Shown here piece by piece: positions 3,680 to 60,507 of a stretch of DNA of 64,000 nt. The DNA lies in assembly GCA_965197415.1 (NCBI GenBank), contig OZ240207.1, positions 2,197,853 to 2,261,852 of the forward strand. The letters run 5' to 3'. The translations under genes were made by a program, and so were the position numbers. The stretch's first letter is position 1. Every line of letters begins with the position of its first letter. Origin of the DNA: Dehalococcoidia bacterium (GTDB taxonomy: Bacteria > Chloroflexota > Dehalococcoidia > Lucifugimonadales > JAGWBF01). The notes under the pieces are model-generated. The model was not told where the DNA came from, did no database searches, and saw only the letters and a program-made list of their open reading frames with translations.

Positions 3680-5347
<1,668 letters not shown>

Positions 5348-10361: not shown

Positions 10362-10395
10362 TGGGCGCCTCCTTCCGTTTTCCTGTGGAGCATGG

Positions 10396-13215
10396 TCATT
10401 GCCCCGAATCTTCCGCCTGCATCCGTTCTATGGTCTGCCTCAAGCGTTCGAGGCTTTCCAACAGGCCCTCGACGGAGCCCTCCAGATTTTGGACTTCGCC
10501 GATTATGGCGTCAATTGCCTCCTGGGACAGGGCCGGTCTCTGGCCGTCGACGCCGTCCGTCGGAGTTGTAGGGCGAGGAATCTGCGGCGTCAAGGTGTCA
10601 GCGCAAGCCTCAGCACCGTTGACCAGTATACACAAGCTCTCCTCGAGGGTGTCCGACATTACTACCTGCCGGTTGTCGGCGACAATCACCTTTTTCAGCT
10701 CGGGGAGGGGCAGGTTCTCGGCGCGGATGTAGAGAGGTTCTACATAGAGCAGGGTCTGGCTTTCACTGCCGTCTTCCCTAGCGACCTGCATGGGAATGGC
10801 CAGCAGGTTGCCCCGCACACAGACCTTCCCTTCCGGGCAGAGCAGGCTGAGCTCCCTTCCTATGTCCTCGTCGCTGGTTATCCGGCCCTCGATCTGCTCG
10901 GGGCCGTCCACCTGGCCTTTGGGGAAAAGGAACGTAATCAGCTTGCCGTAGTTCTCTCCGTCGCTGCGGGCAGCCATCCACCCGACCATGTTCTTCCGCT
11001 CCTCCCCCGCCGGAGTGAAGGGCAACAGAAGTACATACTCGACGTTTTCCTCGCCGGGCAGCTTCATGATGATGTAGTAAGGTTCGATGTCCTGGGTGTT
11101 GGTGGGAGTCTCAAAGACCTCCCGAGCCCTGGCCCACAGGTCGTCCCGGAGGAAGAATTTCTGCGGCTCTTTCATGTGGTACCTGAGGTTTAGTTCGGAT
11201 TGAGCCTGGAACAGGTCGAACCCGTACCGGATGTGGTCCCTGAGGGAGGGGTCCAGTTGGTCGATGGCGTCAAAGTCCTGGAAGAGGTCCGGGAACGCGT
11301 TCCGGTACATTTGAATCATGGGGTCGCTGGGTTCTCTGACGAAGAAGTGGACGTCCCCGTTGTAAGCGTCAACCACGACCTTCACACTGTTGCGAATGTA
11401 GTTATAGTCCTCGAACCGTTGGGAGTAGGCATAGCGGTCCGTGGTTGTGTAAGCGTCGATTATCCACCAGAGCTTGCCGCCATCGCCTATAACAACGTAG
11501 GGGTCGCTGTCCAGCTTTAGGAAGGGCGCCATCACGGAGACTCGCTCGGTTATTTCTCTGTGGAACATGACCTTGCTGCCAGAGCTGAGCTCGCCGCTGA
11601 TGAGGAGGTTGAAGTCCAAGAACCTCCATGCAAATGCGGCCCGCCGGAAGAAGGAGCCGAGGGCCACGCCGCCGTCCCCCTCATAGTTTTTCAGGACGGG
11701 TTCACCCTGGCTTCCGGGGAAATCGAATTCCCGGGTTTCCGTATCCACGACGACGTAGTTGCTTGTGTTCTCACCGAAGTAGATTTCGGGCCGGTCCACC
11801 GTCAGGTCGCCCACAGGGGGCAGTCCTTCGACGAAGAATTCGGGCCTGCCCTCGTCGGTGTAGGAGCTTACCGGGCTTACGGTGACACCAAACCCGTGGG
11901 TGTAGGCGAGAGTGCGGTTGACCCAGTTCTGGGCGTCCTCCTCCAAGCGTTCGGGGAACAACTCCCTGGCAGCCAGCATCACCTGCTGCAACTCGCCGTC
12001 CTGGAATCGGTAACGGTCTACGTCTACGCCGACGAAGTTGTAGTACTGGCGGAAAGTTTGTATCTGGTTGTAAGTCTGCAGGAGCGGCCTGTGGTCCCAG
12101 AGCCGGATGTTCCGGACTGTCTGGTCGTTGTCGGCAATGGTCTGGCTATCGAGAGAGGGCTCGTAGTCGAAGACCGTCTCTTCAATCAGATTGAGGTTGT
12201 ATGCATCCCGCGTGGCGACGATGGCCCTGTCGATGTACTGCTCTTCACGCACGAACTCGTTGGGCGCAACCCGTAGACGTTGGAAGGCGGAGGGATAGAT
12301 GACCCCGGCCACGATGGCTATGACCGCCCATAGCGTGAAGGCGGCGACCATCAATCGCCCGCCGCCGTAGAATATGGAGGTCACGAAACCCACCGCCGAG
12401 ACCAGTGAGATGGCCACCAGCAGCCACAGCACGGGAACCCGAGCGTTGACGTCAGTGTAGCCTGCGCCGGGGGCCGCGCCCCGTCCGGAAAACACCAGTT
12501 CGTAGATATCCAGATAGTGGGCGACGGATATGGTCAACATCAGAACGGCGCCCAGCACAGCCAGGTGGGTCCTCAGCCTGGGGGTCAAGCCGAAGGTGAG
12601 GCCCCGGATGCCGAAGTTGACCAGATAGAGGGCCGCCGACGTTACAATAGCGGCTATCACCAGTCCCATCATCCAGCCTTGTACGAAATGGAGGATAGGC
12701 ATCACCGCCACGTGGAATGTCATGTCTTTGGTGAACTGGGGGTCCTCGATGCCGAAGGGGACCCTGTTCATGAAGATTAGAATAGTCTCCCACCTGCCCT
12801 GGGCCACCGCTCCGAACACGATGGCAGCTATAAAAACGGTGAGCGCCGCTCCTGCGAGAATGGCGATGCGCCCAAAGCGGATGACCTCCGGAGGCACGGG
12901 CAGAGTTGATTCCCCCCTGGAGAAACGGTGGGCCAAGTGGAGGTTGGCGGCCATTACTGTAGCGGCCAAGACCGCCCCGCCGAAGAACAGCCATATTCGT
13001 GTGCCGAGTATAGTCTTGTACACGCTCAGGATGCCGACTTTGTCGAACCAAAGCCAGTCGGTGTAGATGGTCTTGATCACCGACAGGGCAATGATGACGA
13101 TGACGATGACCCCGATGACGCCGGCAATCTTTCCGATGGCCTTGAAGTTGGTAGTGCTGGGCAGTCCTGCGTACCTACTGTAATCGGGCGGTGGCGCGCC
13201 TCCGTTGGTCGTCAA
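10396..13215 (-). CDS. UPF0182-family large membrane protein
   Basis: 939 aa. There are about 7 N-terminal hydrophobic segments followed by a large soluble region with IRLWD...YNQIQTFRQYY, as remembered for the COG1615/UPF0182 family. Confidence 0.7.
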   Translation of the reverse strand: MTTNGGAPPPDYSRYAGLPSTTNFKAIGKIAGVIGVIVIVIIALSVIKTIYTDWLWFDKVGILSVYKTILGTRIWLFFGGAVLAATVMAANLHLAHRFSRGESTLPVPPEVIRFGRIAILAGAALTVFIAAIVFGAVAQGRWETILIFMNRVPFGIEDPQFTKDMTFHVAVMPILHFVQGWMMGLVIAAIVTSAALYLVNFGIRGLTFGLTPRLRTHLAVLGAVLMLTISVAHYLDIYELVFSGRGAAPGAGYTDVNARVPVLWLLVAISLVSAVGFVTSIFYGGGRLMVAAFTLWAVIAIVAGVIYPSAFQRLRVAPNEFVREEQYIDRAIVATRDAYNLNLIEETVFDYEPSLDSQTIADNDQTVRNIRLWDHRPLLQTYNQIQTFRQYYNFVGVDVDRYRFQDGELQQVMLAARELFPERLEEDAQNWVNRTLAYTHGFGVTVSPVSSYTDEGRPEFFVEGLPPVGDLTVDRPEIYFGENTSNYVVVDTETREFDFPGSQGEPVLKNYEGDGGVALGSFFRRAAFAWRFLDFNLLISGELSSGSKVMFHREITERVSVMAPFLKLDSDPYVVIGDGGKLWWIIDAYTTTDRYAYSQRFEDYNYIRNSVKVVVDAYNGDVHFFVREPSDPMIQMYRNAFPDLFQDFDAIDQLDPSLRDHIRYGFDLFQAQSELNLRYHMKEPQKFFLRDDLWARAREVFETPTNTQDIEPYYIIMKLPGEENVEYVLLLPFTPAGEERKNMVGWMAARSDGENYGKLITFLFPKGQVDGPEQIEGRITSDEDIGRELSLLCPEGKVCVRGNLLAIPMQVAREDGSESQTLLYVEPLYIRAENLPLPELKKVIVADNRQVVMSDTLEESLCILVNGAEACADTLTPQIPRPTTPTDGVDGQRPALSQEAIDAIIGEVQNLEGSVEGLLESLERLRQTIERMQAEDSGQ

Positions 13216-21034: not shown

Positions 21035-21151
21035 CCTTGGCGGTTTTAGCGGTGCGGACCCACCCGTTCCCATCCCGAACACGGAAGTGAAACGCTCCAG
21101 CGCTCACGATACTGCTCCGGCGACGGAGTGGGAAAATAGGCCACTGCCGGG
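21035..21151 (+). rRNA. rrf: 5S ribosomal RNA (isolated copy)
   Basis: CCCACCCGTTCCCATCCCGAACACGGAAGTGAAACGCTCCAGCGC...GGGAAAATAGGCCACTGCCGGGG. The terminal helix pairs CCTTGGCGG with CCACTGCCGGGG, and a T-rich run follows. Confidence 0.9.
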
Positions 21152-21327
21152 GGGCTTTTCTTTTGTAGACAACCCGGCAAATTTTACCGCTCTCAGGCCT
21201 GGAATTGCCGCCCTCGAACCCTTCCATTTGGGGTTTAGGTGTGATAAAGTTATAGCGTTCTCATCGATTGTTAAATAATTCACATACTCACTGCCTCTGA
21301 ACACCGTAGAAAAGAAACCTCGGAACC

Positions 21328-44976: not shown

Positions 44977-45218
44977 CGTCGAATTCCAGAATGCGGGCTA
45001 CGTTCCCAATATACCATGTGTGATTGCACTTAGAGGTAGCGCGTTACGAAAAACGGAACATCAGCTTATTTGTACTAAACTAACATTAGAACATATCTCA
45101 GAATTATACTATGTTCGACGCCAATTTTGGTCCGGCGGCAGTTTTCAACGATTACCGCCTTGACAGCCCTTTCTATACCGCCCTTATCCTTTTTTACATA
45201 ACCTCTACAGGCCTTCAC

Positions 45219-46577
45219 ATGACCGACATCAAAGCTGTAAATGGATGGAAAGCCGCGCTTGGCGAGTTGCAAGTGCGTGTGGACAGACACGTCTTCGACA
45301 CATGGCTCAGAGATACCCGGGGCCTCTCCATCGAACGGGGAGTCTTGCTGGTGGGAGTGGCCACTCCCTTCTCTATTGAGTGGCTGGAGAGGCGAATGTA
45401 CCCCACCATTCGGGAGACTGTGCAGAGGGTCGTGGACGGGGCCCTGGACGTGGAGTTCAGATCCACGCCGGTCCTGGACACCGCCCGGTCTCCACTGGAG
45501 CATGCCCGGTCCGGCGCCGCCAACGGCCGCCGACCGGGCCAGTCTTCGTGGTCGGGACTTAACCGACATTACACCTTCCCTCGCTTCGTCGTGGGGTCGT
45601 CCAATCGGCTGCCCTACTCCGCGGCGATGACAGTGGCGGAGACCCCGGAGAACGCGTTCCAACCCTTGTTCATACATTCCCCGGCGGGGCTGGGGAAGAC
45701 CCACTTGTTGCAGGCCATCGGCCATACCTCCATCGAGCGAGGAGACCGCATCCTCTATGTGACCGCAGAGCAGTTCACCAGCGAGTTCATCGCCGCCATA
45801 CGCTCCAGGTCCACCGACGATTTCCGTGCAAAGTACAGAAGCGTGGACGTGCTTCTGGTGGACGACGTTCAGTTTCTTGCCGGCAAGGAGCAGACGCAGG
45901 AGGCCTTCTTCCACACCTTCAACGACCTCTACAACTCCTCAGGCCAGGTGGTGCTTGCGTCGGACAGGCCGCCTAGGGACTTCCTGGACCTGGAAGACAG
46001 GCTTCGCTCCCGGTTTGAGTGGGGTCTCACGGCGGACATATGCGTCCCCGACATGGAGACCCGCGCTGCTATCCTTCGTAACAAGGCTAGCGATATGTCC
46101 GTCTCTTTAGAGGAGCCCGTACTCCACTACGCAGCCAACTATCCGTATCGCAACGTCAGAGAGCTGGAGGGCTGCCTGAATCGAATCGTCGCGATGGCGA
46201 GGCTGTACAACTCTCCCATCACCATGGACCTAGTCGCTCAGGCCATCGCAGACCTGTTGCCCGACTTCACACGCGCCGCCGTCGGTCCTGAAACGATACT
46301 AGAACAAGTTGGCCTCCGCTTCTCCGTCGGACGTGAGAACTTGATTGGCACCAGCCGGAAAAAGGGCGTTCTGGAGCCCCGGAGAATAGCCATGTATCTC
46401 ATGCACGAAGAGCTTGCCATGAGCGACACAGACATAGGAAGGCTCATGGGCGGTCGCAACCACTCTACTGTCATCAGCGCTCTCTCTAAGGTCAATCGTT
46501 CACTGCACACAGACTCTGCAATCAAGAACCACATCATAGCCATAAAGGAAGCCCTCATAAGCGGCGCTCCCGACTAA
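45219..46577 (+). CDS. dnaA: Chromosomal replication initiator protein DnaA
   Basis: FDTWL domain I, AAA+ GLGKTHLL, LLVDDVQFL and the C-terminal DnaA signature (PRRIAMYL...GGRNHSTV). Confidence 0.9.
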   Translation: MTDIKAVNGWKAALGELQVRVDRHVFDTWLRDTRGLSIERGVLLVGVATPFSIEWLERRMYPTIRETVQRVVDGALDVEFRSTPVLDTARSPLEHARSGAANGRRPGQSSWSGLNRHYTFPRFVVGSSNRLPYSAAMTVAETPENAFQPLFIHSPAGLGKTHLLQAIGHTSIERGDRILYVTAEQFTSEFIAAIRSRSTDDFRAKYRSVDVLLVDDVQFLAGKEQTQEAFFHTFNDLYNSSGQVVLASDRPPRDFLDLEDRLRSRFEWGLTADICVPDMETRAAILRNKASDMSVSLEEPVLHYAANYPYRNVRELEGCLNRIVAMARLYNSPITMDLVAQAIADLLPDFTRAAVGPETILEQVGLRFSVGRENLIGTSRKKGVLEPRRIAMYLMHEELAMSDTDIGRLMGGRNHSTVISALSKVNRSLHTDSAIKNHIIAIKEALISGAPD

Positions 46578-46783
46578 TCCCGCCTCTTCAACACAACCAG
46601 CCCACCAAACCGCGCCCCTCGGTTCCTTCTAAACCCTGCTAACATGTACAATACTCATGACTTATCCCTTGGCTTTTGAACGAATCAACAAGACTTTCCA
46701 ACCATAGGCTCACACCTAACAGCCCCAGTTTTGAACATATCCAACGCCCTTATCACTACTATTAAACATCTCACAACACCAGA

Positions 46784-48064
46784 ATGATTGATTTAGCTAA
46801 GATAATCGTAATAGGCGGTTCAGGCGGCAACGGATGCGTCAGTTTTCGCCGAGAGAAGTTCGTTTCCAGAGGAGGCCCCGACGGCGGGGATGGGGGTCAT
46901 GGCGGGAGTGTTTACATCATTGGGGATGACTCGATAAACACTTTGCTTCACTTAAGGTACAACTCTAGGTGGAAGGGTTCCCGGGGAGTCCACGGTAGAG
47001 GCCAGAACAGACGAGGAGCTAACGGGGAAGATGTGAAGATAAGGGCTCCAATCGGCACGGTGATTTGGAAGATGGGAGATGGGGAGAGAGTCGCTATAGG
47101 GGAGGTGTCGGAAGGTGAGGAGGAGCTCCTGGTTGCTGGTGGAGGCCGCGGCGGTTCCGGCAACGCTCGATTCGCCACTGCGACGCAGCAAGAGCCTCTT
47201 CTGGCTGAGAAGGGAATGGAAGGAGAGCGCGCGGAGCTTTTGTTGGAGTTGAAACTGCTGGCCGATGTGGGGATAGTCGGCAAACCCAACGCCGGAAAGT
47301 CTACGCTCATGTCCGTATGTTCGCGGGCGACTCCCAAGGTGGCACCGTATCCATTCACCACGACGGAGCCAGCTCTGGGAGTGGTTGACCTCGGCGTTGG
47401 GTATGATCCTTTCGTGATGATGGAGGTCCCAGGGCTGATCCAGGGCGCTCACGAGGGATACGGTCTGGGACATGACTTCCTGAGGCACGCGGAGAGGGCT
47501 AGGTTGCTGGTCCACCTAGTGGACGGCAGCGCGGACGACCCCGCTGGGGACATGAAGCAGATAAACCGGGAGTTGAAGGCTTTCGACGATGACCTGGGAT
47601 CGAAGCCGCAGATTGTCGTGGTCAACAAGGTGGATATTCCGGATGTACAGGAGCTTGGAGACGTCCTTCAGGAGACGTTGACCGCAGCGAGCAAGGGCGG
47701 GCCTGCCACGGGCTCCGTGCATTTGGTCTCTGCTGCCACGGGCGAGGGCGTCGACGGCCTGATGCTCAAGGTCGTGGAAACTCTGAGCACACTTCCCAAG
47801 AGCGGACTGCGCATCAGCCCGGCGGTCCCTAAGGCGCCCGACGAACCCCCGCCGTTCACCATCACACGACGAGGAGCGGCATACCACGTATCGGCCCCGA
47901 AGATCGAGCGGATGCTTCCTATGGCGGATCTACGCGACTGGCGGGTGATGATCCAGGTCTGGAAGCAGTTGAGAGACCTGGGCGTAGCTGACGCCTTGGA
48001 AGACATGGGAGTCAAGCCAGGAGATGCGGTTCACATCGGCAGGGCCGAGCTGGAATGGCTTTAG
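46784..48064 (+). CDS. obgE: GTPase Obg
   Basis: Glycine-rich Obg fold (GGNGCVSFRREKF), G1 GKPNAGKST, NKVD and a C-terminal OCT-like domain. Confidence 0.95.
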   Translation: MIDLAKIIVIGGSGGNGCVSFRREKFVSRGGPDGGDGGHGGSVYIIGDDSINTLLHLRYNSRWKGSRGVHGRGQNRRGANGEDVKIRAPIGTVIWKMGDGERVAIGEVSEGEEELLVAGGGRGGSGNARFATATQQEPLLAEKGMEGERAELLLELKLLADVGIVGKPNAGKSTLMSVCSRATPKVAPYPFTTTEPALGVVDLGVGYDPFVMMEVPGLIQGAHEGYGLGHDFLRHAERARLLVHLVDGSADDPAGDMKQINRELKAFDDDLGSKPQIVVVNKVDIPDVQELGDVLQETLTAASKGGPATGSVHLVSAATGEGVDGLMLKVVETLSTLPKSGLRISPAVPKAPDEPPPFTITRRGAAYHVSAPKIERMLPMADLRDWRVMIQVWKQLRDLGVADALEDMGVKPGDAVHIGRAELEWL

Positions 48065-48095
48065 GATGGGAGCAAGCCCGGAGTTCGGGAAGTAG

Positions 48096-48731
48096 ATGCG
48101 GCTCGGATTGATGGGCGGCACCTTCGACCCGATCCACTTAGGGCATCTTCTGGCGGCGGAAGAGGCGTTGGCAAGGTGCCAACTGGACGAGGTGTTGTTT
48201 GTGCCGGCTGGGAGGCCCTGGATGAAGGACGGAGGAGGCGTCTCCCCCGCCCACCATCGCATGAACATGACGACCCTGGCCGTGGCCTACAATCCCCGCT
48301 TCTCGGTCTCCTCCATTGAGGTGGACAGGGAAGGCCCCACGTACACCGTGGACACGCTGGAAGAACTTCGTGACGAGGACTGTTCCAGGGAGATGTTCCT
48401 GATCGTGGGAGCGGACTCGGTGGCGCAGATGGACCGCTGGAAGAAACCGGAGCGTATTCAGGAACTTTGCACCGTTATAGCCGTCCCAAGGCCGGGATAC
48501 GATGCACCCGGCGTCTTGAAGGGAATGGATAAGTCCGCCCGCGTAATATACCTGGACGCCCCGCTTACGGCCATCAGCGCGACGGAAGCGAGAGAAAGGG
48601 TGTCCAGGGGACTTGCGGTGGGTGATTGTGTCCCGGAGGCCGTGGAGGAGTATATTCAGCGGTACGGTCTGTATCAGGTTTCGTCCCTCGCCGTGAATTC
48701 GAACGCGCCGGAGGAGAGTCATGGCGGCTGA
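48096..48731 (+). CDS. nadD: Nicotinate-nucleotide adenylyltransferase
   Basis: GGTFDPIHLGH motif and ISATEAR near the C-terminus. Confidence 0.9.
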   Translation: MRLGLMGGTFDPIHLGHLLAAEEALARCQLDEVLFVPAGRPWMKDGGGVSPAHHRMNMTTLAVAYNPRFSVSSIEVDREGPTYTVDTLEELRDEDCSREMFLIVGADSVAQMDRWKKPERIQELCTVIAVPRPGYDAPGVLKGMDKSARVIYLDAPLTAISATEARERVSRGLAVGDCVPEAVEEYIQRYGLYQVSSLAVNSNAPEESHGG

Positions 48732-49281
48732 GGCTGAACGTCTGCTTGAATTGGCCGTGCGCCTTGGGGCGCTGACGTACGGGGAGTTCACTCTCTCTTC
48801 AGGCAAAGTCAGCCCCTACTACTTCGATGGACGACTTTTGACGCTTGACCCGGAGGGCGCCTTCCTGGTTGGACGAGCTTTCCTACCGGTGGTTAGAGAG
48901 GCTGGAGCCGAGGCGGTTGGTGGCCCCACATTAGGCGCTGACCCCATGGCCACGGCCATTGCGTTGACCAGCCACGTGGAAGGTACTCCCATACCGGCTT
49001 TCATAGTCAGGAAAGAGACTAAGGGCCACGGCGCGGGCCGGGCCATCGAGGGGCCGTTGCCTGAGGGATGCAAGGTTGCTGTCGTGGACGATACGTGCAC
49101 GTTGGGAGGCTCTCTGATTAACGCCATAGAGGCCGCTGAGGCCGCCGGTTGCACAGTGGTCAAAGTGGCCACCATACTGGACAGGCAAGAGGGCGGGAGC
49201 CACGAGATTCGCCGCCGAGGTTATGACTACTGGACCCTGCTGGAGGCTACGCCCGACGGCAAGGTAAAGCCAGCAGTCTAG
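48721..49281 (+). CDS. pyrE: Orotate phosphoribosyltransferase
   Basis: GEFTLSSGK.SPYYFD and the PRPP loop VAVVDDTCTLGGS. Confidence 0.85.
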   Translation: MAAEAERLLELAVRLGALTYGEFTLSSGKVSPYYFDGRLLTLDPEGAFLVGRAFLPVVREAGAEAVGGPTLGADPMATAIALTSHVEGTPIPAFIVRKETKGHGAGRAIEGPLPEGCKVAVVDDTCTLGGSLINAIEAAEAAGCTVVKVATILDRQEGGSHEIRRRGYDYWTLLEATPDGKVKPAV

Positions 49282-49283
49282 CC

Positions 49284-49316
49284 CCCTCTCCCTCAGGGAG
49301 AGGGTTGGGGTGAGGG
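49284..49316. repeat. 33-nt dispersed palindromic repeat, copy B (inverted)
   Basis: CCCTCTCCCTCAGGGAGAGGGTTGGGGTGAGGG sits between the convergent pyrE and gyrB genes. Confidence 0.9.
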
Positions 49317-49317
49317 T

Positions 49318-51246
<1,929 letters not shown>

Positions 51247-52788: not shown

Positions 52789-52861
52789 GCGCCGTTGCTT
52801 CTGACTGCGCGCCGCGGCGCCGGTGTATAATGGGCGGGCGCATACAGAAAGGGGGTCCAAA

Positions 52862-54355
52862 GTGGCCACACGCTCTTTCCTCGGCAACGTCAACGCTCCC
52901 GAGTTCCCGTCAGGCAAGGACTGGCTCAACACAGGCAGGCCCATCAGCATGAAAGACCTGCGGGGGAAAATCGTGATCCTGGACTTCTGGACGTCCTGTT
53001 GAGTCAACTGCATGCACGTATTTCCGCAGTTGCGGAAACTGGAGCAGAAATACGCGGCGGAGCTGGTTGTGGTGGGAGTCCACTCGGCCAAGTTCACCTC
53101 CGAGCGGGACACGAACAACCTGAGGAAGGCGGTGCTCAGGTTCGAGTTGCAGCACCCGGTTGTGAATGACGGGGACTTCAGCATCTGGCGGGAGTACGGC
53201 TGCCGCGCATGGCCCACGCTGATGTTCGTGGACCCCCAGGGCAAGGTCATTGGAAAGCATGAGGGAGAGATCAGCTTCGAGCAGTTCGACGTCGTGCTTG
53301 GTCGGATGGTCCAGGAGTTTGACGAGAAGGGGATATTGGACCGGACAGCCCGTTTGGACTTCCAGCTGGAAGTCCAAGAGTCCCCGGGCCTCTCCTTCCC
53401 GGGCAAGATACTGGCTGACGAGGCTTCCGGACGCCTGTTTATCGCTGACTCCAACAACAACCGGATCGTGGCTTCTGACCTGGACGGGAATGTGACCCAC
53501 GTCATCGGAAGCGGCCAACAGGGCTTGGCCGACGGGGACTTTGGCTCCGCGCAGTTCGATCACCCCCAGGGAATGGCCCTGTCGGAAGACGGGCACATCC
53601 TCTACGTCGCCGACACCGAGAACCATGCCATACGGAAGGTTGACCTGGAGACCGGGACCGTCGAGACGGTCGCAGGCACTGGCGAGCAGGCGCAGGGGCG
53701 TTCCGGGGGCGGACCTGCGCTGCAGACGGCCCTCAGTTCACCCTGGGACGTGGCTGTCCACAATGGGGTCGTGCACATTGCAATGGCGGGAGGCCACCAG
53801 CTCTGGGCGCTTCACTTGGAGTCGGGGCAGGTCGGCGTCTACGCAGGCAATGGTCGTGAGGCTCCCATCGACGGTCCTCTGTTGTCGGCCTCGCTAGACC
53901 AGCCTACAGGCATCACCTCGGACGGCCAGCGGCTCTACTTTGCCGACAGCGAGGCCAGCGCCGTCAGGTACGCCGACCTGGACCCGTCAGGACGGGTGGG
54001 AACCATCGTGGGCGAGGACCTGTTCGTGTGGGGCGACGTGGACGGAATTGGCGAGCAGGTCCGCCTTCAGCACGTCCAGGGCGTCGACTGGCACGACGGA
54101 GTCCTGTACATAGCCGACACCTACAACAACAAGATCAAGAAGGTCTACCCGGCCACGAGGAGCGTACTCACGTTCCTTGGAAGCGGCGAACATGGGCACG
54201 CGGACGGTCCCGCGTTCGAGGCACGCTTCCACGAGCCTTCGGGCGTCAGCGCCGCGGGAGGGAAACTCTACGTGGCCGACACCAACAACCACGCCATCCG
54301 TGTCGCCAGCCTGGAAACGGGCCATGTGGAGACCCTGGAGTTGCGGGGACTGTAG
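52862..54355 (+). CDS. Thioredoxin-fold + NHL-repeat protein; candidate selenoprotein (in-frame TGA at 53000-53002)
   Basis: The track ORF 53012-54355 is the certain part. The same frame upstream reads [59 protein letters not shown]. The TGA falls on the first Cys of the expected CxxC. A hairpin lies at 53021-53038, and a GTG at 52862 has AAGGGGG upstream. Confidence 0.55.
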
Positions 54356-54386
54356 AAGCGGCTCATCATGGCTCGTTGAGCAAGCC

Positions 54387-54929
54387 ATGACCGTTCGGAT
54401 AAGAGCGGCAGGTTCAGCCTACGCCGGTTCTATAGCAAGGGTTCATGTCGATGTGTGGCGGACGACATATGTCGGCATCGTTTCGGACCGTTATCTGGCC
54501 GACCTTTCATACCAGTCTAGCGAAACGTGGTGGGCTGACATTCTGGCGACTCCTCAGACAGCTGCGTGCACCTTTGTTGCCGAGACTGGTGAAGGTGAGG
54601 TCGTAGGCTTTGCGCGTGGCGGACTGGAAAGCGGAGGCGACCTGACGTACAAGGGTGAACTCTACACCGTATATCTGTTCAAAGACCATCAGCGTAAGGG
54701 TGTCGGTAAGAGCCTTGTGTCAGCCGTAGCTCGGAGCCTGCTAGCCAGCAAGGTCGACTCTATGTTGGTGTGGGTCTTCGAGGAAAATCGCCCGGCATGC
54801 CGATTCTACGAGTCGTTGGGAGGCCAGCAGATTGGTCGGAAGAATGTAGAGATCGGTGGTGCAAACGTCGCGGAAGTGTCGTACGGTTGGACGGACATCT
54901 TAGGCTTGGTGACCGATAGCGTAGTGTGA
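54387..54929 (+). CDS. GNAT-family N-acetyltransferase
   Basis: QRKGVGKSLV acetyl-CoA binding motif (Q/RxxGxG/A) and NRPACRFYESLG. Confidence 0.8.
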   Translation: MTVRIRAAGSAYAGSIARVHVDVWRTTYVGIVSDRYLADLSYQSSETWWADILATPQTAACTFVAETGEGEVVGFARGGLESGGDLTYKGELYTVYLFKDHQRKGVGKSLVSAVARSLLASKVDSMLVWVFEENRPACRFYESLGGQQIGRKNVEIGGANVAEVSYGWTDILGLVTDSVV

Positions 54930-54972
54930 TCGCTAGGGACGGTCACGGCACGAATCACCGCCATCCCAACTG

Positions 54973-56157
54973 CTACAAGCCGAACCGCTTTGCCGCCGCG
55001 GCGAACCCCTCCAGAGAGCCTTCCAGAACCTGGTCCTCCAGGCAGTAGGACACCCGGAAATGGCCCGGCTGCCCGAAGCCTCGTCCGGGCACCACCAGCA
55101 CGTTGTAACGCTGCAATTCATCCACGAAGGCCAGGTCGTCCTCTCCGGGAGCCTTTGGGAACAGGTAGAAAGCTCCCTGGGGTCTGAAGCAGTCGTACCC
55201 CAGGGCCGTCAAAGCGCCGTGGATGAAGTCCCGCTTCCGCTGGTAGTCCGACACGTCCACGGTGACCCCTTGCAGCGCCTTCACCACATGCTGCATTAGG
55301 GCGGGTGCGTTCACTATGCCCAGGATGCGGTTGCAGAAGGTCAGGCCGTCGGCCAGTTGAGTTTTCCCCTCGTAGGCCGGGTTGACGGCTATGTACCCGA
55401 TGCGCTCGCCGGGGAGGGCCAGGTCCTTGGCGTGGGAGTGGACCACCATGGAAGCTTCGTAGTGGGGGTAGACGTGGGGGTAGGATAGGCCGTCGTAGAT
55501 GATGCGGCGGTAGGGCTCGTCGCTAATCAGGAATATCTCCGAGTCGAACTGAGCGCTCTTCACGCGCAGAAGGTCTCCCAGCTCAGAAAGGATGTTGGAC
55601 CCATACACCGCCCCCGACGGGTTGTTGGGTGAGTTGATTAACACGGCCCTGGTTTTGGGCGTTATGAGGCCCTCCAGCGCCGCCAGGTCCGGCTGAAACG
55701 CGGCGTCGGTGGGCACCGTGATGGGTACACCGCCGTGGTTGTCGGTGTAGTAGACGTACTCCACGAAATAAGGGGCGAAGATAATTACCTCGTCCCCGGG
55801 ATTCAGGATGGTCTTGAGCGCCACGTTGAGGCCGGCGGCGGCGCCCGCCGTCATGACGATTTCGGCGCCGGTCATGTCCACCCCGGCCTCCTCCCGTATC
55901 CCTGCCGCCACCGCCTCCCGGGTGTCGGCGTAGCCCGCATTGGGCATGTAGCGGTGCATACCCGGAACCTCGCTGGCGGCGAGGCGTTGGAGCTCTGCCC
56001 TGAACTCGGCGGGCGGCTCCACTACGGGGTTGCCCAGAGAGAGGTCGAAGACCTTGTCGTCGCCGTACTGTTGCTTCAGGGCGATGCCCGCCTCGAACAT
56101 CTTCCTGATCCACCCGCCCTCTTCCACGAACTTCGCCACCTTCTCCGAAAGGGCCAT
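54973..56157 (-). CDS. Class I/II PLP-dependent aminotransferase (aspartate/alanine aminotransferase-like)
   Basis: LSLGNP, NSPNNPSG and SHAKDLALPGERIGY (Lys site) blocks. The start at 56157 has AGGAGG 8 nt upstream. Confidence 0.85.
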   Translation of the reverse strand: MALSEKVAKFVEEGGWIRKMFEAGIALKQQYGDDKVFDLSLGNPVVEPPAEFRAELQRLAASEVPGMHRYMPNAGYADTREAVAAGIREEAGVDMTGAEIVMTAGAAAGLNVALKTILNPGDEVIIFAPYFVEYVYYTDNHGGVPITVPTDAAFQPDLAALEGLITPKTRAVLINSPNNPSGAVYGSNILSELGDLLRVKSAQFDSEIFLISDEPYRRIIYDGLSYPHVYPHYEASMVVHSHAKDLALPGERIGYIAVNPAYEGKTQLADGLTFCNRILGIVNAPALMQHVVKALQGVTVDVSDYQRKRDFIHGALTALGYDCFRPQGAFYLFPKAPGEDDLAFVDELQRYNVLVVPGRGFGQPGHFRVSYCLEDQVLEGSLEGFAAAAKRFGL

Positions 56158-56346
56158 AGGGTACGCCTCCTGAAAGAGCCTGTTCAGCAGACTATAAAAC
56201 GGCGGCGGCAGGGTGTCCAGCAAAGGGGCGTTGTGCGCGTTGACACGCTTAAGGGTGTATGGTTACATTGGAAATCTGGGGACTGCCGGCGTCATGGCGG
56301 CAGCCCCTGTTCCAGCAGCCCCGTTTTCGGGCAGCCGTAAGGTTGT

Positions 56347-58844: not shown

Positions 58845-58920
58845 GGGGATATAGCTCAACTGGGAGAGCGCGGCGTTCGCAATGCCGAGGTTGGGGGTTC
58901 GAGTCCCCCTATCTCCACCA
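58845..58920 (+). tRNA. tRNA-Ala (anticodon CGC), CCA encoded
   Basis: Acceptor GGGGATA/TATCTCC with the G3:U70 Ala identity pair, anticodon loop TTCGCAA, T arm GGGGG-TTCGAGT-CCCCC. Confidence 0.9.
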
Positions 58921-59112
58921 AACTAACCCATTCTCGCCCATTCCCTGCCCGCCTCTTCAGGTCTCAGCAAAGCTCCTATTAGTAGCTGTATTAGGCGTCG
59001 GCAACGCCGGAATCGTCTCCTTGAGGCCTCGCTCCCGGTCTCCCGCAATCCCTTGTTGTCTCGCTTCATGTGTGGTAATTTCTGTGGTAAGAGATTAAGG
59101 AGGCGGCATAGC

Positions 59113-60266
59113 GTGAAGCTCTCGGCGACAAGGGTGAAGGCGCTCAGGGACCCCGGCCGCTACTCGGACGGCGACGGCCTCCACCTGTTCATAAGCAAGA
59201 CGGGCGGCAAGAGCTGGGTGCAGCGGACAACCGTCGACGGCCGACGGCGCGACTTCGGCCTGGGCGGGTATCCGACTGTGTCGCTGGCCCGGGCGAGGAA
59301 GCGTGCATCCGACAACCGTGAGGCGATAGGCGACGGCAGGGACCCGGCGGCGGACAAGCGCAAGCCCGCGACCCTCACTTTCAGCGAGGCCGCCCATGCC
59401 GTCCACGAAGTCAACAAACCTCGTTGGCGCAACGAAAGCCACGCTAGAGCGTGGATTCAGACCCTCGAACGACATGCTTTCCCCAAGATCGGCGCCAAGC
59501 CCATCGACACGATAAGCCGCGCCGACGTGTTGACGGTCCTTGCGCCCATATGGTCGACGCGGCCCGAGACCGCCCGGCGTGTGCGGCAAAGGATGCGCAC
59601 GATATTCAGGTGGGCCATGGCGAATGAATTGATTGAGGCCAATCCGGCGGGGGAAGCCATAGACGGGGCCTTGCCGTCGATGCCCAAGGTCAAAGCGCAT
59701 CTCCGGGCGCTTCCCTACCAGGAGGCGGGCTCGGCTCGGCTCTCAAGACCGTGGATACGTCCCGGACGTCGCTTGCCGCCAAGCGTTGTCTGACGTTCCT
59801 GGTTTTCACGGCGGCGCGGTCCGGAGAGGCGAGGGGGGCTGTGTGGGGCGAAATCGACCTTGAGAGCGCAACATGGACGATCCCCGCCTCACGCATGAAG
59901 GGAGGGATGGAGCACCGGGTTCCCCTGAGCGACCAGGCCCTGGAGGTGTTGAAGCTGGCGCGTCAACTTGAAGACGGCGCCGGGCTCTGCTTCCCGTCCC
60001 CGCTGAAACCTGGCCGGACGCTGAGCGACATGACCCTGACGAAGACGCTCCGTTCCACGGGCCTTGCGGACCGGACGACGGTGCACGGGTTCAGAACGTC
60101 CTTCAAGACCTGGACCATGGAACGGACGGATGCGCCCTGGGCGGTCGGGGAGTCGGCCCTGGCGCATCAGCTGGGCGGGAGCGTCGAGCAAGCGTATGCG
60201 CGTTCCGATCTGCTCGCCCGCCGCCGCACTCTCATGCAACAGTGGGCGGACTACCTCACAGCCTAG
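59113..60266 (+). pseudogene. int: P4-type tyrosine integrase, frameshifted within a (GGCTC)3 run
   Basis: It has a DUF4102-like arm-binding N-terminus (LSATRVKALRDPGRYSDGDGLHL) and a catalytic C-terminal half (ARSGEARGAVWGEIDL, HGFRTSFKTW, ...AY). Track ORFs 59053-59793 and 59751-60266 are in different frames. Removing one GGCTC at 59728-59742 restores a single frame. Confidence 0.8.
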
Positions 60267-60291
60267 TCGCACCATGACGGCCAAGGGATTC

Positions 60292-60507
60292 CTAGGAGGC
60301 GGTGGATGAGCCGCGCTCACTCGTCGCCGTCGGCAGGGACTGTATCCAAGCGGTGATGTCGCTTTCTTTCCACCTGACCGCCATGGAGCCGACCCTGACA
60401 GGCGGAGGGAATTTCCCGTCGCCAATCCGTCTGTAGATCGAGGCGCGGCTCAATCCGGTGCGTTCTTCAACCTCTCGACGACGCAGCAGTATGTCGCTCA
60501 TTCTCAT
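60292..60507 (-). CDS. alpA: AlpA-family phage regulatory protein / excisionase-like HTH
   Basis: ILLRRREVEERTGLSRASIYRRIGDGKFPPPVRVG...VRWKESDITAWI is a canonical AlpA pattern. Confidence 0.8.
   Translation of the reverse strand: MRMSDILLRRREVEERTGLSRASIYRRIGDGKFPPPVRVGSMAVRWKESDITAWIQSLPTATSERGSSTAS

What the first reader, a model, noticed from the sequence alone, without database searches (positions are those of the whole stretch)
52862..54355. Candidate selenoprotein: thioredoxin-fold/NHL-repeat protein with TGA at the CxxC position and a downstream hairpin
Seen in the sequence: the annotated ORF starts at 53012 ([14 protein letters not shown]...), which is the middle of a thioredoxin fold. 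The same frame upstream is open from GTG 52862 (AAGGGGG SD-like) and reads ...[44 protein letters not shown]. Established knowledge, from memory of this family (NHLRC2-like Trx-NHL proteins): the corresponding segment is DFWTYCCINCMH, whose redox motif is CxxC. The TGA at 53000-53002 therefore aligns with the first redox Cys and gives UxxC, the classical Sec/Cys replacement pattern. Eighteen nt downstream lies a perfect hairpin TTTCCGC-AGTT-GCGGAAA (53021-53038) with GU in the loop, at a distance compatible with a bacterial SECIS. An alternative longer pairing is CGTATTTC (53017-53024) with GAAATACG (53049-53056). Inference: the TGA is read as selenocysteine, and the true protein is about 497 aa.
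Basis: partly seen in the sequence, partly recalled or inferred. Interest (0 to 1): 0.7.

Follow-up and report, generated by a model that had tools for sequence, protein, structure and literature searches.

The report
Selenocysteine form of bacterial NHLRC2/SOQ1 protein
The stop codon inside this gene is almost certainly read as selenocysteine, so one 497-residue redox protein (the bacterial relative of human NHLRC2 and plant SOQ1) has been split into two genes in every public annotation I could check.

Summary
Window 52862-54355 (+) is one reading frame with a single in-frame TGA (53000-53002), giving C-U-V-N-C where full-length relatives have CC(I/V)NC.

- **TGA conservation:** the same TGA occurs in 35 of 80 species-level genomes, 11 sibling contigs from 8 ENA samples, and at least 120 JGI metagenome stretches. 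Every homologue has either TGA or Cys at that codon.
- **Upstream coding:** the 46 upstream codons are conserved as coding sequence.
- **Hairpin:** the hairpin UUUCCGC-AGUU-GCGGAAA (53021-53038) meets all four published bacterial SECIS criteria. It pairs in 99% of cells across 34 sequences, with compensatory changes at 4 of 7 pairs. It is absent from all 44 Cys-type genes.
- **Origin:** all TGA forms that carry the hairpin are one clade centred on Chloroflexota.
- **Family:** closest structures are Arabidopsis SOQ1 (E = 1e-130) and human NHLRC2. The TGA aligns with SOQ1 Cys431, part of its proven redox pair.

Not shown: selA/B/C/D in this genome (only 64 kb is available), or selenium in the protein. 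The mechanism is conventional. The Sec form of this family is not named in the literature I could search. Interest is moderate.

The parts
52846..52855 (+). Shine-Dalgarno-like AGAAAGGGGG, 6 nt before the GTG start
   Evidence: Read directly from the sequence. Function inferred from position only.
52862..54355 (+). Full coding sequence of the selenoprotein: 497 aa plus TAG stop. Start is GTG 52862, Sec is codon 47.
   Evidence: One frame with a single internal TGA. The start matches the Met of homologues, for example L001 M-ATKRSF. Aligns over residues 11-496 to SOQ1 7djj, E = 1.2e-130.
52862..53002 (+). The piece that gene callers report as a separate 46-aa ORF (the N-terminal part of the Trx-like domain, ending at the TGA)
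   Evidence: This exact 46-aa peptide is on record as its own ORF on 10 contigs. It is always followed 9 nt later by the 447-aa ORF.
52892..53302 (+). Thioredoxin-like (TlpA / Thioredoxin_8 type) domain, about residues 11-147
   Evidence: Pfam PF13905 at 58 bits, PF00578 at 44 bits, PF08534 at 43 bits. PDB matches to SOQ1, NHLRC2, DipZ, ResA and TlpA.
52997..52999 (+). Cys46 (TGT), the first C of the family's CC(I/V)NC motif. It is dispensable in TGA-type genes.
   Evidence: The residue before U is C in 67, G in 11 and A in 2 of 80 metagenome copies.
53000..53002 (+). TGA read as selenocysteine (Sec47). It corresponds to the N-terminal Cys of the redox pair (SOQ1 Cys431, NHLRC2 Cys90).
   Evidence: TGA or Cys only at this column. 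The alignment places it on the second C of CCINC. The redox pair C431-C434 is from bioRxiv 10.1101/2024.11.01.621559.
53009..53011 (+). Cys50 (TGC), the partner of Sec47 in the U-x-x-C motif
   Evidence: Invariant TG[CT] in all 80 loci. Its role as resolving residue is inferred from CxxC chemistry.
53021..53038 (+). SECIS hairpin: 7-bp stem (53021-53027 with 53032-53038) and AGUU loop (53028-53031). It overlaps the codons for F-P-Q-L-R-K.
   Evidence: Hairpin -9.3 kcal/mol. 99.2% of cells paired, 4 of 7 pairs with compensatory changes, 0 of 500 shuffles as good. Third-codon-position entropy 0.38 bits in TGA-type against 1.53 in Cys-type genes. The 16-mer occurs 34 times in 1.56 Mb, 33 of them exactly 22 nt after this TGA. 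Meets the published bSECIS constraints.
53012..54355 (+). The truncated 447-aa ORF as it appears in public gene calls (starts at Met51)
   Evidence: 60 of the 120 best clusters are called in this truncated form.
53387..54349 (+). NHL-repeat beta-propeller, about residues 176-496. The protein ends here, with no C-terminal domain.
   Evidence: Pfam NHL 6.6e-27 and TEN_NHL. Residues 176-496 align to the SOQ1 NHL-CTD chains 7djm/7djl. Residues 177-492 align to the isolated NHLRC2 propeller 6g7w. The alignment to the 667-residue 7djj chain stops at chain residue 513.

Best explanation
This is a selenoprotein gene. The mRNA is translated from GTG 52862. At UGA 53000-53002 the hairpin 18 nt downstream (53021-53038) acts as a bacterial SECIS. 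It recruits SelB carrying GTP and Sec-tRNA(Sec), so selenocysteine is inserted as residue 47 and translation continues to TAG 54353-54355.

The product is a 497-residue cytoplasmic protein with two domains: a TlpA/Thioredoxin_8-type thioredoxin fold and an NHL beta-propeller. It is the bacterial orthologue of plant SOQ1 and human NHLRC2, without their C-terminal domain. Its active site is C-U-V-N-C.

Inferred mechanism: Sec47 is the attacking nucleophile and Cys50 resolves the intermediate into a selenenylsulfide. The propeller, which in the solved homologues forms a cleft with the motif, holds the substrate. The likely activity is substrate-specific reduction of an oxidised protein or small molecule (a disulfide, sulfenate or methionine sulfoxide), with re-reduction by a cellular thiol system.

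Shown: the TGA/Cys column, coding conservation on both sides, the conserved and covarying hairpin, and family membership.

Inferred: actual Sec insertion, the roles of Sec47 and Cys50, and the substrate.
For: 1. One frame, one internal TGA, in DFWTSC-U-VNC.
2. All 60 full-length relatives among the 120 best hits have DFWT[YF]CCINC. The 60 closest clusters (65-96% identity) are all called from the Met or the next start after the motif.
3. In 80 species-representative genomes the codon is TGA in 35 and TGC/TGT in 44. One locus, L028, was not resolved by the motif search. The upstream frame is conserved.
4. In an unbiased scan of all 4800 open TGA contexts in 1.56 Mb, this site is the only one whose aligned residue is exclusively '*' (35) or C (43).
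5. Upstream codons show coding selection: pairwise differences at codon positions 1:2:3 are 6315:3797:13746.
6. The TGA and hairpin are identical in 11 sibling contigs from 8 ENA samples. They occur in at least 120 JGI metagenome stretches. The 80 that were fetched are all in frame and stop-free upstream.
7. The hairpin has a 4-nt loop AGUU (G second, followed by U), a 7-bp stem and 25-nt spacing from the UGA. Its energy is -9.3 kcal/mol. This meets all four published bSECIS constraints (PMC13188914).
8. Across sequences the hairpin is 99.2% paired, with compensatory changes at 4 of 7 pairs. Synonymous sites are frozen only inside the hairpin and only in TGA-type genes.
9. All 7 pairs form in 32 of 36 TGA-type genes, and in 0 of 44 Cys-type genes. 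Cys-type genes encode IIPDLK[KR] where TGA-type genes encode [VI]FPQLRK.
10. TGA is an ordinary stop here: 12 of 32 long ORFs in the window end in TGA. This excludes genetic codes 4 and 25.
11. Every TGA form that carries the hairpin falls in one clade.
12. SOQ1 7djj matches at E = 1.2e-130 and NHLRC2 6gc1 at 7.3e-109, with CCINC aligned to C-U-V-N-C. The SOQ1 redox pair is C431-C434.
13. One TGA-type genome (UBA1141 = L004) is listed with 49 selenoprotein genes in a catalogue restricted to Sec-pathway-positive species (PMC13326102). A cultured member of the class has selC, the Sec-synthesis genes and selB (PMC4918011).
Against: - No selA, selB, selD or tRNA-Sec was found in the window or in any fetched flank. 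The rest of this genome could not be searched.
- There is no direct evidence of selenium in the protein.
- On the single sequence the hairpin is not more stable than shuffles once more than about 26 nt are folded.
- No Rfam family matches the hairpin, because none exists for it.
- One TGA-type locus (L078) lacks the hairpin, and one (L051) has a broken upstream frame.
- The homologous Trx-like domains of NHLRC2 and SOQ1 were inactive in the classical insulin-reduction assay (PMC6107167). The chemistry proposed for Sec47 is therefore inference.
Confidence: 0.92

Rival explanations
1. Two separate polypeptides. Translation ends at the TGA, giving a 46-residue peptide. A 447-residue protein is made independently from ATG 53012, which is how every public annotation reads it. 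The hairpin would serve some other role, such as pausing or reinitiation.
For: An ATG lies 9 nt after the TGA in the window and in most Dehalococcoidia copies. Gene callers produce exactly this split.
Against: - Many TGA-type genes have no Met there: they have AH, LH, IH, VH or SH after U-x-x-C. There the next start lies further inside the fold.
- The split would cut a thioredoxin fold at its active site and remove the catalytic residue.
- The TGA column is Cys in every non-TGA homologue.
- The hairpin fits the SECIS model in loop sequence and spacing.
Confidence: 0.03
2. The UGA is recoded, but not to selenocysteine. Options are Cys inserted by a tRNA(Sec)-like tRNA(Cys) through SelB, or near-cognate read-through such as Trp.
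For: The comparative data show only that the codon is read through and that Cys is the acceptable alternative. They cannot tell Sec from Cys insertion. SelB-dependent Cys-inserting tRNAs have been reported in some bacteria. That statement is from my own knowledge and was not checked here.
Against: - If Cys were wanted, a TGC/TGT codon would be simpler. Keeping a TGA plus a costly frozen hairpin across a whole clade is the usual signature of Sec.
- Members of this class have conventional Sec machinery and many selenoproteins.
- Trp or Gly never appears at this column in any homologue.
Confidence: 0.04
3. Pseudogene or sequencing error: the TGA is a nonsense mutation or a miscalled TGC/TGT.
For: A single-base change from TGC/TGT gives TGA. 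One relative (L051) does have a disrupted upstream frame. One (L078) has a TGA without the hairpin.
Against: - The same TGA occurs in 35 species-level genomes, 11 sibling contigs from 8 samples and at least 120 metagenome stretches.
- Both flanks are under purifying selection.
- The hairpin covaries.
Confidence: 0.01

Closest known systems
Arabidopsis SUPPRESSOR OF QUENCHING 1 (SOQ1), lumenal Trx-like / NHL / C-terminal domains (PDB 7DJJ)
   Same: It is the best solved match: E = 1.2e-130 over residues 11-496. It has the same Trx-like plus NHL-propeller architecture, and its CCINC motif aligns with C-U-V-N-C. In SOQ1 the redox pair is C431-C434, and the window's TGA sits on C431.
   Different: SOQ1 uses Cys, not Sec. 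It also carries a HAD domain, a transmembrane helix and a C-terminal domain with a second Cys pair. A preprint assigns the methionine sulfoxide reductase activity to that C-terminal domain. The window protein has none of these and ends after the propeller. It has no signal or anchor sequence.
Human NHLRC2 (PDB 6GC1), mutated in FINCA disease
   Same: E = 7.3e-109 over residues 9-492. It has the same two N-terminal domains, with CCINC at the start of helix alpha-1 facing the cleft with the propeller (PMC6107167).
   Different: NHLRC2 uses Cys, not Sec, and has an extra C-terminal beta-stranded domain. Its biochemical function is still undetermined, and no activity was seen in the insulin assay.
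Catalogued Trx-fold UxxC selenoprotein families: 'Thiol-disulfide isomerase-like protein' (PF13905 / cd02966), 'Redoxin family protein' (PF08534), 'Prx-like thiol:disulfide oxidoreductase' (PF00578)
   Same: They share the domain type and the UxxC motif. The window's N-terminal domain hits PF13905, PF00578 and PF08534 (family tables in PMC9312934 and PMC13188914). Homology-based catalogues such as BSepDB would probably file this gene under one of them.
   Different: Those families are described by the Trx-type domain alone. Neither review, nor the BSepDB or deep-Sep papers, mentions NHL. The two reviews also lack the word propeller, and the 2026 review lacks SOQ1, NHLRC2 and YncE. I could not fetch their representative sequences to test direct relatedness.
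Bacterial SECIS consensus (bSECISearch model; E. coli fdhF type)
   Same: It is a stem-loop inside the coding region just after the UGA. It has G then U in a small apical loop, and its spacing lies within the 16-37 nt range.
   Different: It is a short perfect 7-bp stem with a 4-nt loop and no conserved lower stem. From my own knowledge, the GU of the loop lies about 7 nt further from the UGA than in E. coli fdhF. Its sequence is almost invariant across phyla.
Mycobacterium tuberculosis DipZ C-terminal Trx-like domain (PDB 2HYX)
   Same: The Trx-like domain matches at E = 1.5e-21, with the related motif SCINC.
   Different: DipZ has no NHL propeller and no Sec. It is part of a membrane DsbD-like reductant transporter.

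Membership tests
Bacterial selenoprotein gene (SelB/SECIS-dependent UGA recoding) | In-frame UGA that aligns with Cys in homologues | tested here: met
   TGA in 35 and TGC/TGT in 44 of 80 genomes at the same codon. The aligned residue is only '*' or C.
Bacterial selenoprotein gene (SelB/SECIS-dependent UGA recoding) | Protein-coding conservation on both sides of the UGA in one frame | tested here: met
   The upstream 36 codons are conserved, with differences concentrated at third positions (6315:3797:13746). The upstream 40 codons are stop-free in 80 of 80 metagenome copies.
Bacterial selenoprotein gene (SelB/SECIS-dependent UGA recoding) | SECIS stem-loop just downstream: loop of 3-9 nt with G in its first two positions, stem of 4-16 bp, 16-37 nt from the UGA, MFE of -7.5 kcal/mol or lower | tested here: met
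   Loop AGUU, 7-bp stem, 25-nt spacing, -9.3 kcal/mol (criteria from PMC13188914). Conserved and covarying.
Bacterial selenoprotein gene (SelB/SECIS-dependent UGA recoding) | selA, selB, selC (tRNA-Sec) and selD in the same genome | not testable with these tools
   Only 64 kb of this genome is available. None of these genes is in the window or in the flanks of related loci. The single SelB-like hit was EF-Tu. Indirect support: the genome of L004 (UBA1141) is in BSepDB with 49 selenoprotein genes.
Bacterial selenoprotein gene (SelB/SECIS-dependent UGA recoding) | Selenium found in the protein (75Se labelling or mass spectrometry) | not testable with these tools
   This is an experiment. Ca. Fervidibacter sacchari PD1, which carries a TGA-type copy (L038), is cultured.
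NHLRC2 / SOQ1 Trx-like-NHL family | N-terminal Trx-like (Thioredoxin_8 / TlpA-type) domain directly followed by an NHL beta-propeller | tested here: met
   Pfam hits. Residues 11-496 align to SOQ1 7djj and residues 9-492 to NHLRC2 6gc1.
NHLRC2 / SOQ1 Trx-like-NHL family | CC(I/V)NC motif at the CxxC position | tested here: met
   C-U-V-N-C, with U in place of the second C.
NHLRC2 / SOQ1 Trx-like-NHL family | C-terminal beta-stranded domain with a conserved Cys pair (present in SOQ1 and mammalian NHLRC2) | tested here: not met
   The protein ends at residue 497, right after the propeller. The alignment to the 667-residue 7djj chain stops at chain residue 513. PMC6107167 states that only a small number of bacterial homologues have the mammalian architecture. 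This domain therefore does not define the bacterial branch.
'Thiol-disulfide isomerase-like protein' selenoprotein family (Sargasso Sea 2005) | Thioredoxin_8 / cd02966 domain with UxxC | tested here: met
   PF13905 is the best Trx-type Pfam hit at 58 bits. The motif is U-V-N-C. Family definition.
'Thiol-disulfide isomerase-like protein' selenoprotein family (Sargasso Sea 2005) | Direct sequence relatedness to the family's representatives (MAK15852.1, MGB1650493.1) | not testable with these tools
   Sequences cannot be fetched by accession here. The BSepDB supplement listing the families is not held.
NCBIfam NF041054 'ResA-like WAxxUGC motif-containing protein' (a curated selenoprotein model) | Score at or above the curated cutoff, and the WAxxUGC motif | tested here: not met
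   22 bits against a cutoff of 300, and the motif differs. No NCBIfam model reaches its cutoff for this protein.

The most novel reading that the evidence does not exclude
The Sec form marks a selenoprotein family that has not been recognised as such: the bacterial orthologues of human NHLRC2 and plant SOQ1. Natural Sec/Cys exchange is a hallmark of catalytic redox cysteines. The finding would therefore mean that the second Cys of CC(I/V)NC is a true catalytic nucleophile throughout the family. It would also mean that the Trx-like domain plus propeller alone, without the C-terminal domain, is a self-sufficient reductase acting on a substrate held by the propeller. That gives a direct handle on the still-unknown biochemistry of NHLRC2, the FINCA disease protein.
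Probability: 0.4. Interest if true: 0.6.

Novelty: new member of a known kind. Interest (0 to 1): 0.5.

Why it matters
**Annotation.** Every public record I could check splits this gene in two. They report a small 'hypothetical protein' and a truncated 'thioredoxin-like / YncE / alkyl hydroperoxide reductase' protein that lacks its active site. This includes GenBank and RefSeq for a cultured organism. It also includes 60 of the 120 closest protein clusters. The same error is implied for at least 35 species-level genomes and at least 120 metagenome contigs.

**Biology.** Selenocysteine normally replaces only catalytic redox cysteines. A whole clade with Sec at the second Cys of CC(I/V)NC therefore argues that this motif does redox catalysis in the NHLRC2/SOQ1 family. 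[quoted passage not shown] It agrees with the recent SOQ1 redox work.

**Se use in Chloroflexota.** The finding adds a widespread environmental selenoprotein to Chloroflexota, including the Dehalococcoidia already noted as selenoprotein-rich.

**Limit.** The recoding mechanism itself is conventional.

Tried and rejected
1. **Sec machinery near the gene.** ARAGORN on the window and 35 TGA-type loci found no tRNA-Sec. tblastn with E. coli SelA, SelB and SelD (fetched) against the window and all loci found nothing real. A weak GTPase hit in Cys-type locus L056 and a stronger one in L159 were followed up. The L159 hit is EF-Tu, lying next to nusG-rplKAJL.
2. **Other selenoprotein genes.** A Cys/TGA-pair scan of all 4800 open TGA contexts in 1.56 Mb found no other candidate in the window or flanks. 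Everything apart from this site was out-of-frame shadow noise.
3. **A nearby CMD/AhpD-like gene** in sibling contigs belongs to a family known to include selenoproteins. It is a normal complete gene with no in-frame TGA, and it is absent from the window.
As written, its coordinates give 41% pairing. Re-registered to 53017-53024 with 53047-53054 it gives 74%, no better than composition allows. Rejected as a conserved element.
5. **Rfam.** No family matches the hairpin at gathering or permissive thresholds.
6. **Exact look-up of the window's 447-aa ORF** found nothing on record. Full-length sequences containing 'U' are not accepted by the look-up tool. Whether any database holds a correctly annotated Sec form could therefore only be judged indirectly. 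No hit above 62% identity covers more than 90% of the query.
7. **The BSepDB family list.** The supplement is not held, so I could not confirm under which catalogue family, if any, this gene is already filed.
8. **Cluster look-up of NCBI-sourced truncated hits** gave no names or accessions.
Full report
**1. The observation**

The sequence is as described. The ORF that a gene caller would report starts at ATG 53012 ([14 protein letters not shown]...) and ends at TAG 54353-54355. The same frame is open upstream to GTG 52862, which is preceded by AGAAAGGGGG (52846-52855). It reads ...[45 protein letters not shown].

The TGA is at 53000-53002. The perfect hairpin TTTCCGC-AGTT-GCGGAAA is at 53021-53038, 18 nt after the TGA. 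Read through, the product is 497 aa.

On the single sequence the hairpin is only mildly unusual. The 26-nt piece gives z = -2.8. Windows of 46-74 nt are not different from shuffles. The case therefore rests on comparison with other sequences.

**2. What the protein is**

With the TGA replaced by Cys, Pfam finds two parts. Residues 15-137 are a thioredoxin-type domain: Thioredoxin_8 at 58 bits, AhpC-TSA at 44 bits, Redoxin at 43 bits. The remainder is NHL repeats (6.6e-27).

The best solved relatives are the lumenal region of Arabidopsis SOQ1 (7djj, E = 1.2e-130, residues 11-496) and human NHLRC2 (6gc1, E = 7.3e-109). The isolated Trx-like domain also matches M. tuberculosis DipZ, ResA and TlpA. 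In the SOQ1 alignment the motif CCINC lies on C-[TGA]-V-N-C.

The alignment to the 667-residue SOQ1 chain ends at chain residue 513. The window protein therefore lacks the C-terminal domain of SOQ1 and NHLRC2. No NCBIfam model reaches its cutoff. A curated model for a different ResA-like selenoprotein (WAxxUGC) scores 22 bits against a cutoff of 300.

**3. The TGA is conserved and aligns with Cys**

A search of 5.8 billion protein clusters returned 120 best hits. They split exactly in two:
- 60 full-length proteins at 58-62% identity, all with DFWT[YF]CCINC.
- 60 closer proteins at 65-96% identity. All cover only about 90% of the query and begin at MH[VI][FL]PQLRKLE or MRKLE, just after the motif.

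I then fetched the genomic DNA for 80 species-representative genomes. The codon at this position is TGA in 35 and TGC/TGT in 44; one locus, L028, was not resolved.

The TGA-type genomes are mostly Dehalococcoidia. They also include Thermomicrobia, Chloroflexia, Dormibacterota, Rokubacteria and the cultured Ca. Fervidibacter sacchari PD1. The upstream frame is conserved in them (NAPEFP..W.NT..L....L.GK.V.LDFWT..).

Differences in the 36 upstream codons fall mainly on third positions, 6315:3797:13746 for positions 1:2:3.

I also ran an unbiased scan of all 4800 TGA codons with open flanks in the 1.56 Mb held. This site was the only one whose aligned residue was exclusively '*' (35) or Cys (43).

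**4. Not an error**

Three close relatives (88-94% nucleotide identity) have the identical TGA and hairpin. The window's exact 46-aa N-terminal peptide is on record as a separate small ORF on 10 contigs. Eight further contigs from six further ENA samples, from both short- and long-read assemblies, show the same layout. A 46-aa ORF is followed by TGA plus 9 nt and then a 447-aa ORF.

In all 80 that were fetched, the gene is in frame and the upstream 40 codons are stop-free.

TGA is a normal stop in this genome: 12 of 32 long ORFs in the window end in TGA. A reassigned genetic code is therefore excluded.

**5. The hairpin is a conserved, covarying, Sec-specific element**

- **Pairing.** In 34 TGA-type sequences the 7-bp helix is paired in 99.2% of cells. 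Four of the seven pairs show changes on both sides that keep the pair. Examples are CCGC/GCGG becoming CCCC/GGGG in L036 and CCTC/GAGG in L044, and UU..AA becoming UG..CA in L038. None of 500 shuffles reaches any of the five measures. Sliding the partner by 1-3 nt drops pairing to 32-71%.
- **Loop.** The AGUU loop is invariant in those 34 sequences. RNAalifold predicts the same helix on its own.
- **Synonymous sites.** Third-codon-position entropy inside the hairpin averages 0.38 bits in TGA-type genes and 1.53 bits in Cys-type genes. Outside the hairpin the two groups are alike.
- **Presence and absence.** All 7 pairs form in 32 of 36 TGA-type genes, with a median of -8.7 kcal/mol. No Cys-type gene of 44 reaches even 6 pairs, with a median of +4.0 kcal/mol.
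- **Protein-level trace.** TGA-type genes encode [VI]FPQLRK over the hairpin. Cys-type genes encode IIPDLK[KR].
- **Specificity.** The 16-mer TTCCGCAGTTGCGGAA (up to 1 mismatch) occurs 34 times in 1.56 Mb. Of these, 33 lie exactly 22 nt after this TGA.
- **Fit to the published model.** The bacterial SECIS model (PMC13188914, Fig. 2A legend) sets four constraints:
  - a 3-9 nt loop;
  - a 4-16 bp stem;
  - G in the first two loop positions, usually followed by G or U;
  - 16-37 nt between the UGA and the loop, with an MFE of -7.5 kcal/mol or lower.

  Here the values are 4 nt, 7 bp, A-G-U-U, 25 nt and -9.3 kcal/mol.

**6. Evolution**

A neighbour-joining tree of the 82 proteins puts every TGA form that carries the hairpin into one clade, separate from all Cys forms. 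This fits a single Cys-to-Sec conversion followed by vertical descent in Chloroflexota, plus some transfer to other phyla. This is inference from a quick distance tree.

There are two oddities. L078 has a TGA but sits among Cys forms and has no hairpin. L051 has a variant hairpin with a 5-nt loop but a broken upstream frame.

In the metagenome copies the residue before U is C in 67, G in 11 and A in 2. The first Cys of 'CC' is therefore dispensable, and U-x-x-C is the functional pair.

**7. How it most likely works**

*Shown:* an in-frame UGA at the catalytic position of a thioredoxin fold, with a SECIS-type hairpin at the right distance.

*Inferred from established knowledge of bacterial Sec decoding:* SelB with GTP and Sec-tRNA(Sec) binds the hairpin and delivers Sec to the UGA.

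In SOQ1, C431 and C434 (the second and last Cys of CCINC) form the redox-active pair with Em = -274 mV. They pass electrons to a Cys pair in the C-terminal domain. The lumenal region reduces methionine sulfoxide in its target, the lipocalin LCNP (bioRxiv 10.1101/2024.11.01.621559). In NHLRC2 the motif sits at the start of helix alpha-1, in a cleft formed with the propeller (PMC6107167).

The window protein has no C-terminal domain and no signal sequence. My best reading is a cytoplasmic reductase. Sec47 attacks an oxidised substrate held by the propeller. Cys50 then resolves the intermediate to a selenenylsulfide. A cellular thiol system re-reduces it. The substrate is unknown.

The Fervidibacter copy has a hydrophobic N-terminal segment, so some Sec forms are probably membrane-anchored or exported.

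**8. Sec machinery**

The window has only tRNA-Met and tRNA-Ala. No tRNA-Sec lies in the flanks of 35 TGA-type loci. tblastn with E. coli SelA, SelB and SelD finds nothing real in any held DNA. The one promising hit was EF-Tu.

Two indirect lines of support exist:
- BSepDB is restricted to species with the Sec pathway. It lists 'Dehalococcoidia bacterium UBA1141', the genome of my TGA-type locus L004, with 49 selenoprotein genes. It lists another Dehalococcoidia MAG with 46 (PMC13326102, Table 2).
- The cultured Dehalogenimonas alkenigignens has selC, Sec-synthesis genes, selB and Sec-containing SelD and FdhA (PMC4918011).

**9. Comparison with what is known, and novelty**

Trx-fold UxxC proteins are the commonest type of bacterial selenoprotein. 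The family tables of the 2022 and 2026 reviews include 'Thiol-disulfide isomerase-like protein' (PF13905 / cd02966, UxxC; first seen in the Sargasso Sea in 2005). They also include 'Redoxin family protein' and 'Prx-like thiol:disulfide oxidoreductase'. The window's N-terminal domain hits these same Pfam families. A homology-based catalogue has therefore quite possibly already collected this gene under a generic name. I could not check this, because the supplement is not held.

None of these papers mentions NHL. The two reviews also lack the word propeller, and the 2026 review lacks SOQ1, NHLRC2 and YncE. No paper in the library holds both 'selenoprotein' and 'SOQ1'. The only paper with 'NHLRC2' and 'selenocysteine' is on an unrelated subject, by its title.

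Public protein records do not hold a full-length form. Even for cultured Ca. Fervidibacter sacchari PD1 the gene appears as two ORFs:
- a 76-aa 'hypothetical protein' (WKU16768.1 / WP_259097031.1);
- a 432- or 442-aa 'alkyl hydroperoxide reductase / thioredoxin-like domain-containing protein' (WKU16769.1 / WP_326522700.1).

I therefore rate it a new member of a known kind. The recoding mechanism is conventional and the active-site type is conventional. What is new is the recognition that the NHLRC2/SOQ1 family has a large natural Sec clade.

**10. Verdict**

Confidence that this is a genuine selenoprotein gene is 0.92.

Interest is moderate (0.5). A selenoprotein specialist would not be surprised. 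The finding does correct a systematic mis-annotation. It also gives independent evolutionary evidence that the CC(I/V)NC motif of a human disease protein of unknown biochemistry is a catalytic redox centre.

Noticed in passing
window 21036-21152: A 5S rRNA gene stands alone. No 16S or 23S match was found anywhere in the 64 kb at Rfam gathering thresholds, so the 5S appears unlinked from the other rRNA genes.
   Followed up: no
window 45111-51246: By length and synteny with annotated sibling contigs, the gene order here is:
- dnaA (45111-46577)
- obg (46784-48064)
- a nadD-like gene (48096-48731)
- a phosphoribosyltransferase (48721-49281)
- gyrB (49318-51246, minus strand)

The target gene therefore lies a few kb from the probable replication origin.
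   Followed up: partly
window 54356-54972 (GNAT ORF 54387-54929), compared with L083-L092: The slot between the selenoprotein gene and the aminotransferase (54973-56223, minus strand) holds a different small gene in different sibling contigs of the same population:
- a GNAT acetyltransferase in the window and L091
- a SocA_Panacea protein in L085-L088, L090 and L092
- a PDDEXK_4 nuclease in L089
- a DUF433 protein in L083 and L084

It looks like a variable hotspot for toxin-antitoxin or defence-type genes.
   Followed up: no
window 58845-60507: tRNA-Ala (58845-58920) is followed by an integrase that appears split into two overlapping ORFs (59053-59793 and 59751-60266). An AlpA-like gene follows (60292-60507, minus strand). 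This is probably an integrated element. Gene content beyond this point differs from the sibling contigs.
   Followed up: no
L078 (VFKD01000378.1), TGA at locus position 4457: This locus has a TGA at the same codon, but the protein groups with the Cys forms. The downstream sequence encodes IIPDLKRLE and has no hairpin (2 of 7 pairs). No canonical SECIS lies within 16-37 nt. It could be an independent Cys-to-Sec event with an unusual SECIS, a pseudogene or a sequencing error.
   Followed up: partly
L051 (CAVSAD010000008.1), around locus position 9989: This is a TGA-type copy whose hairpin has a 5-nt loop (TTCCGC-AGTTG-GCGGAA, about -13 kcal/mol). Its upstream frame is broken by stops. It is either a decaying gene or an indel error in a long-read MAG.
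   Followed up: no
L038 (Ca. Fervidibacter sacchari PD1, NZ_CP130454.1), locus positions 9761-11332: The TGA-type copy in this cultured organism has a hydrophobic N-terminal segment (MWRILTATAIITMILISVGMM). Some Sec forms are therefore probably membrane-anchored or exported, unlike the window's cytoplasmic form. GenBank and RefSeq annotate it as two ORFs, and JGI names cluster relatives 'YncE' or even 'endoglucanase'.
   Followed up: partly
L094-L173 (JGI metagenome copies): The residue just before Sec is C in 67, G in 11 and A in 2 of the 80 copies. The acidic residue of DFWT is H in 8 copies (HFWTY[CA]). This is variation in the active-site neighbourhood within the Sec clade.
   Followed up: no
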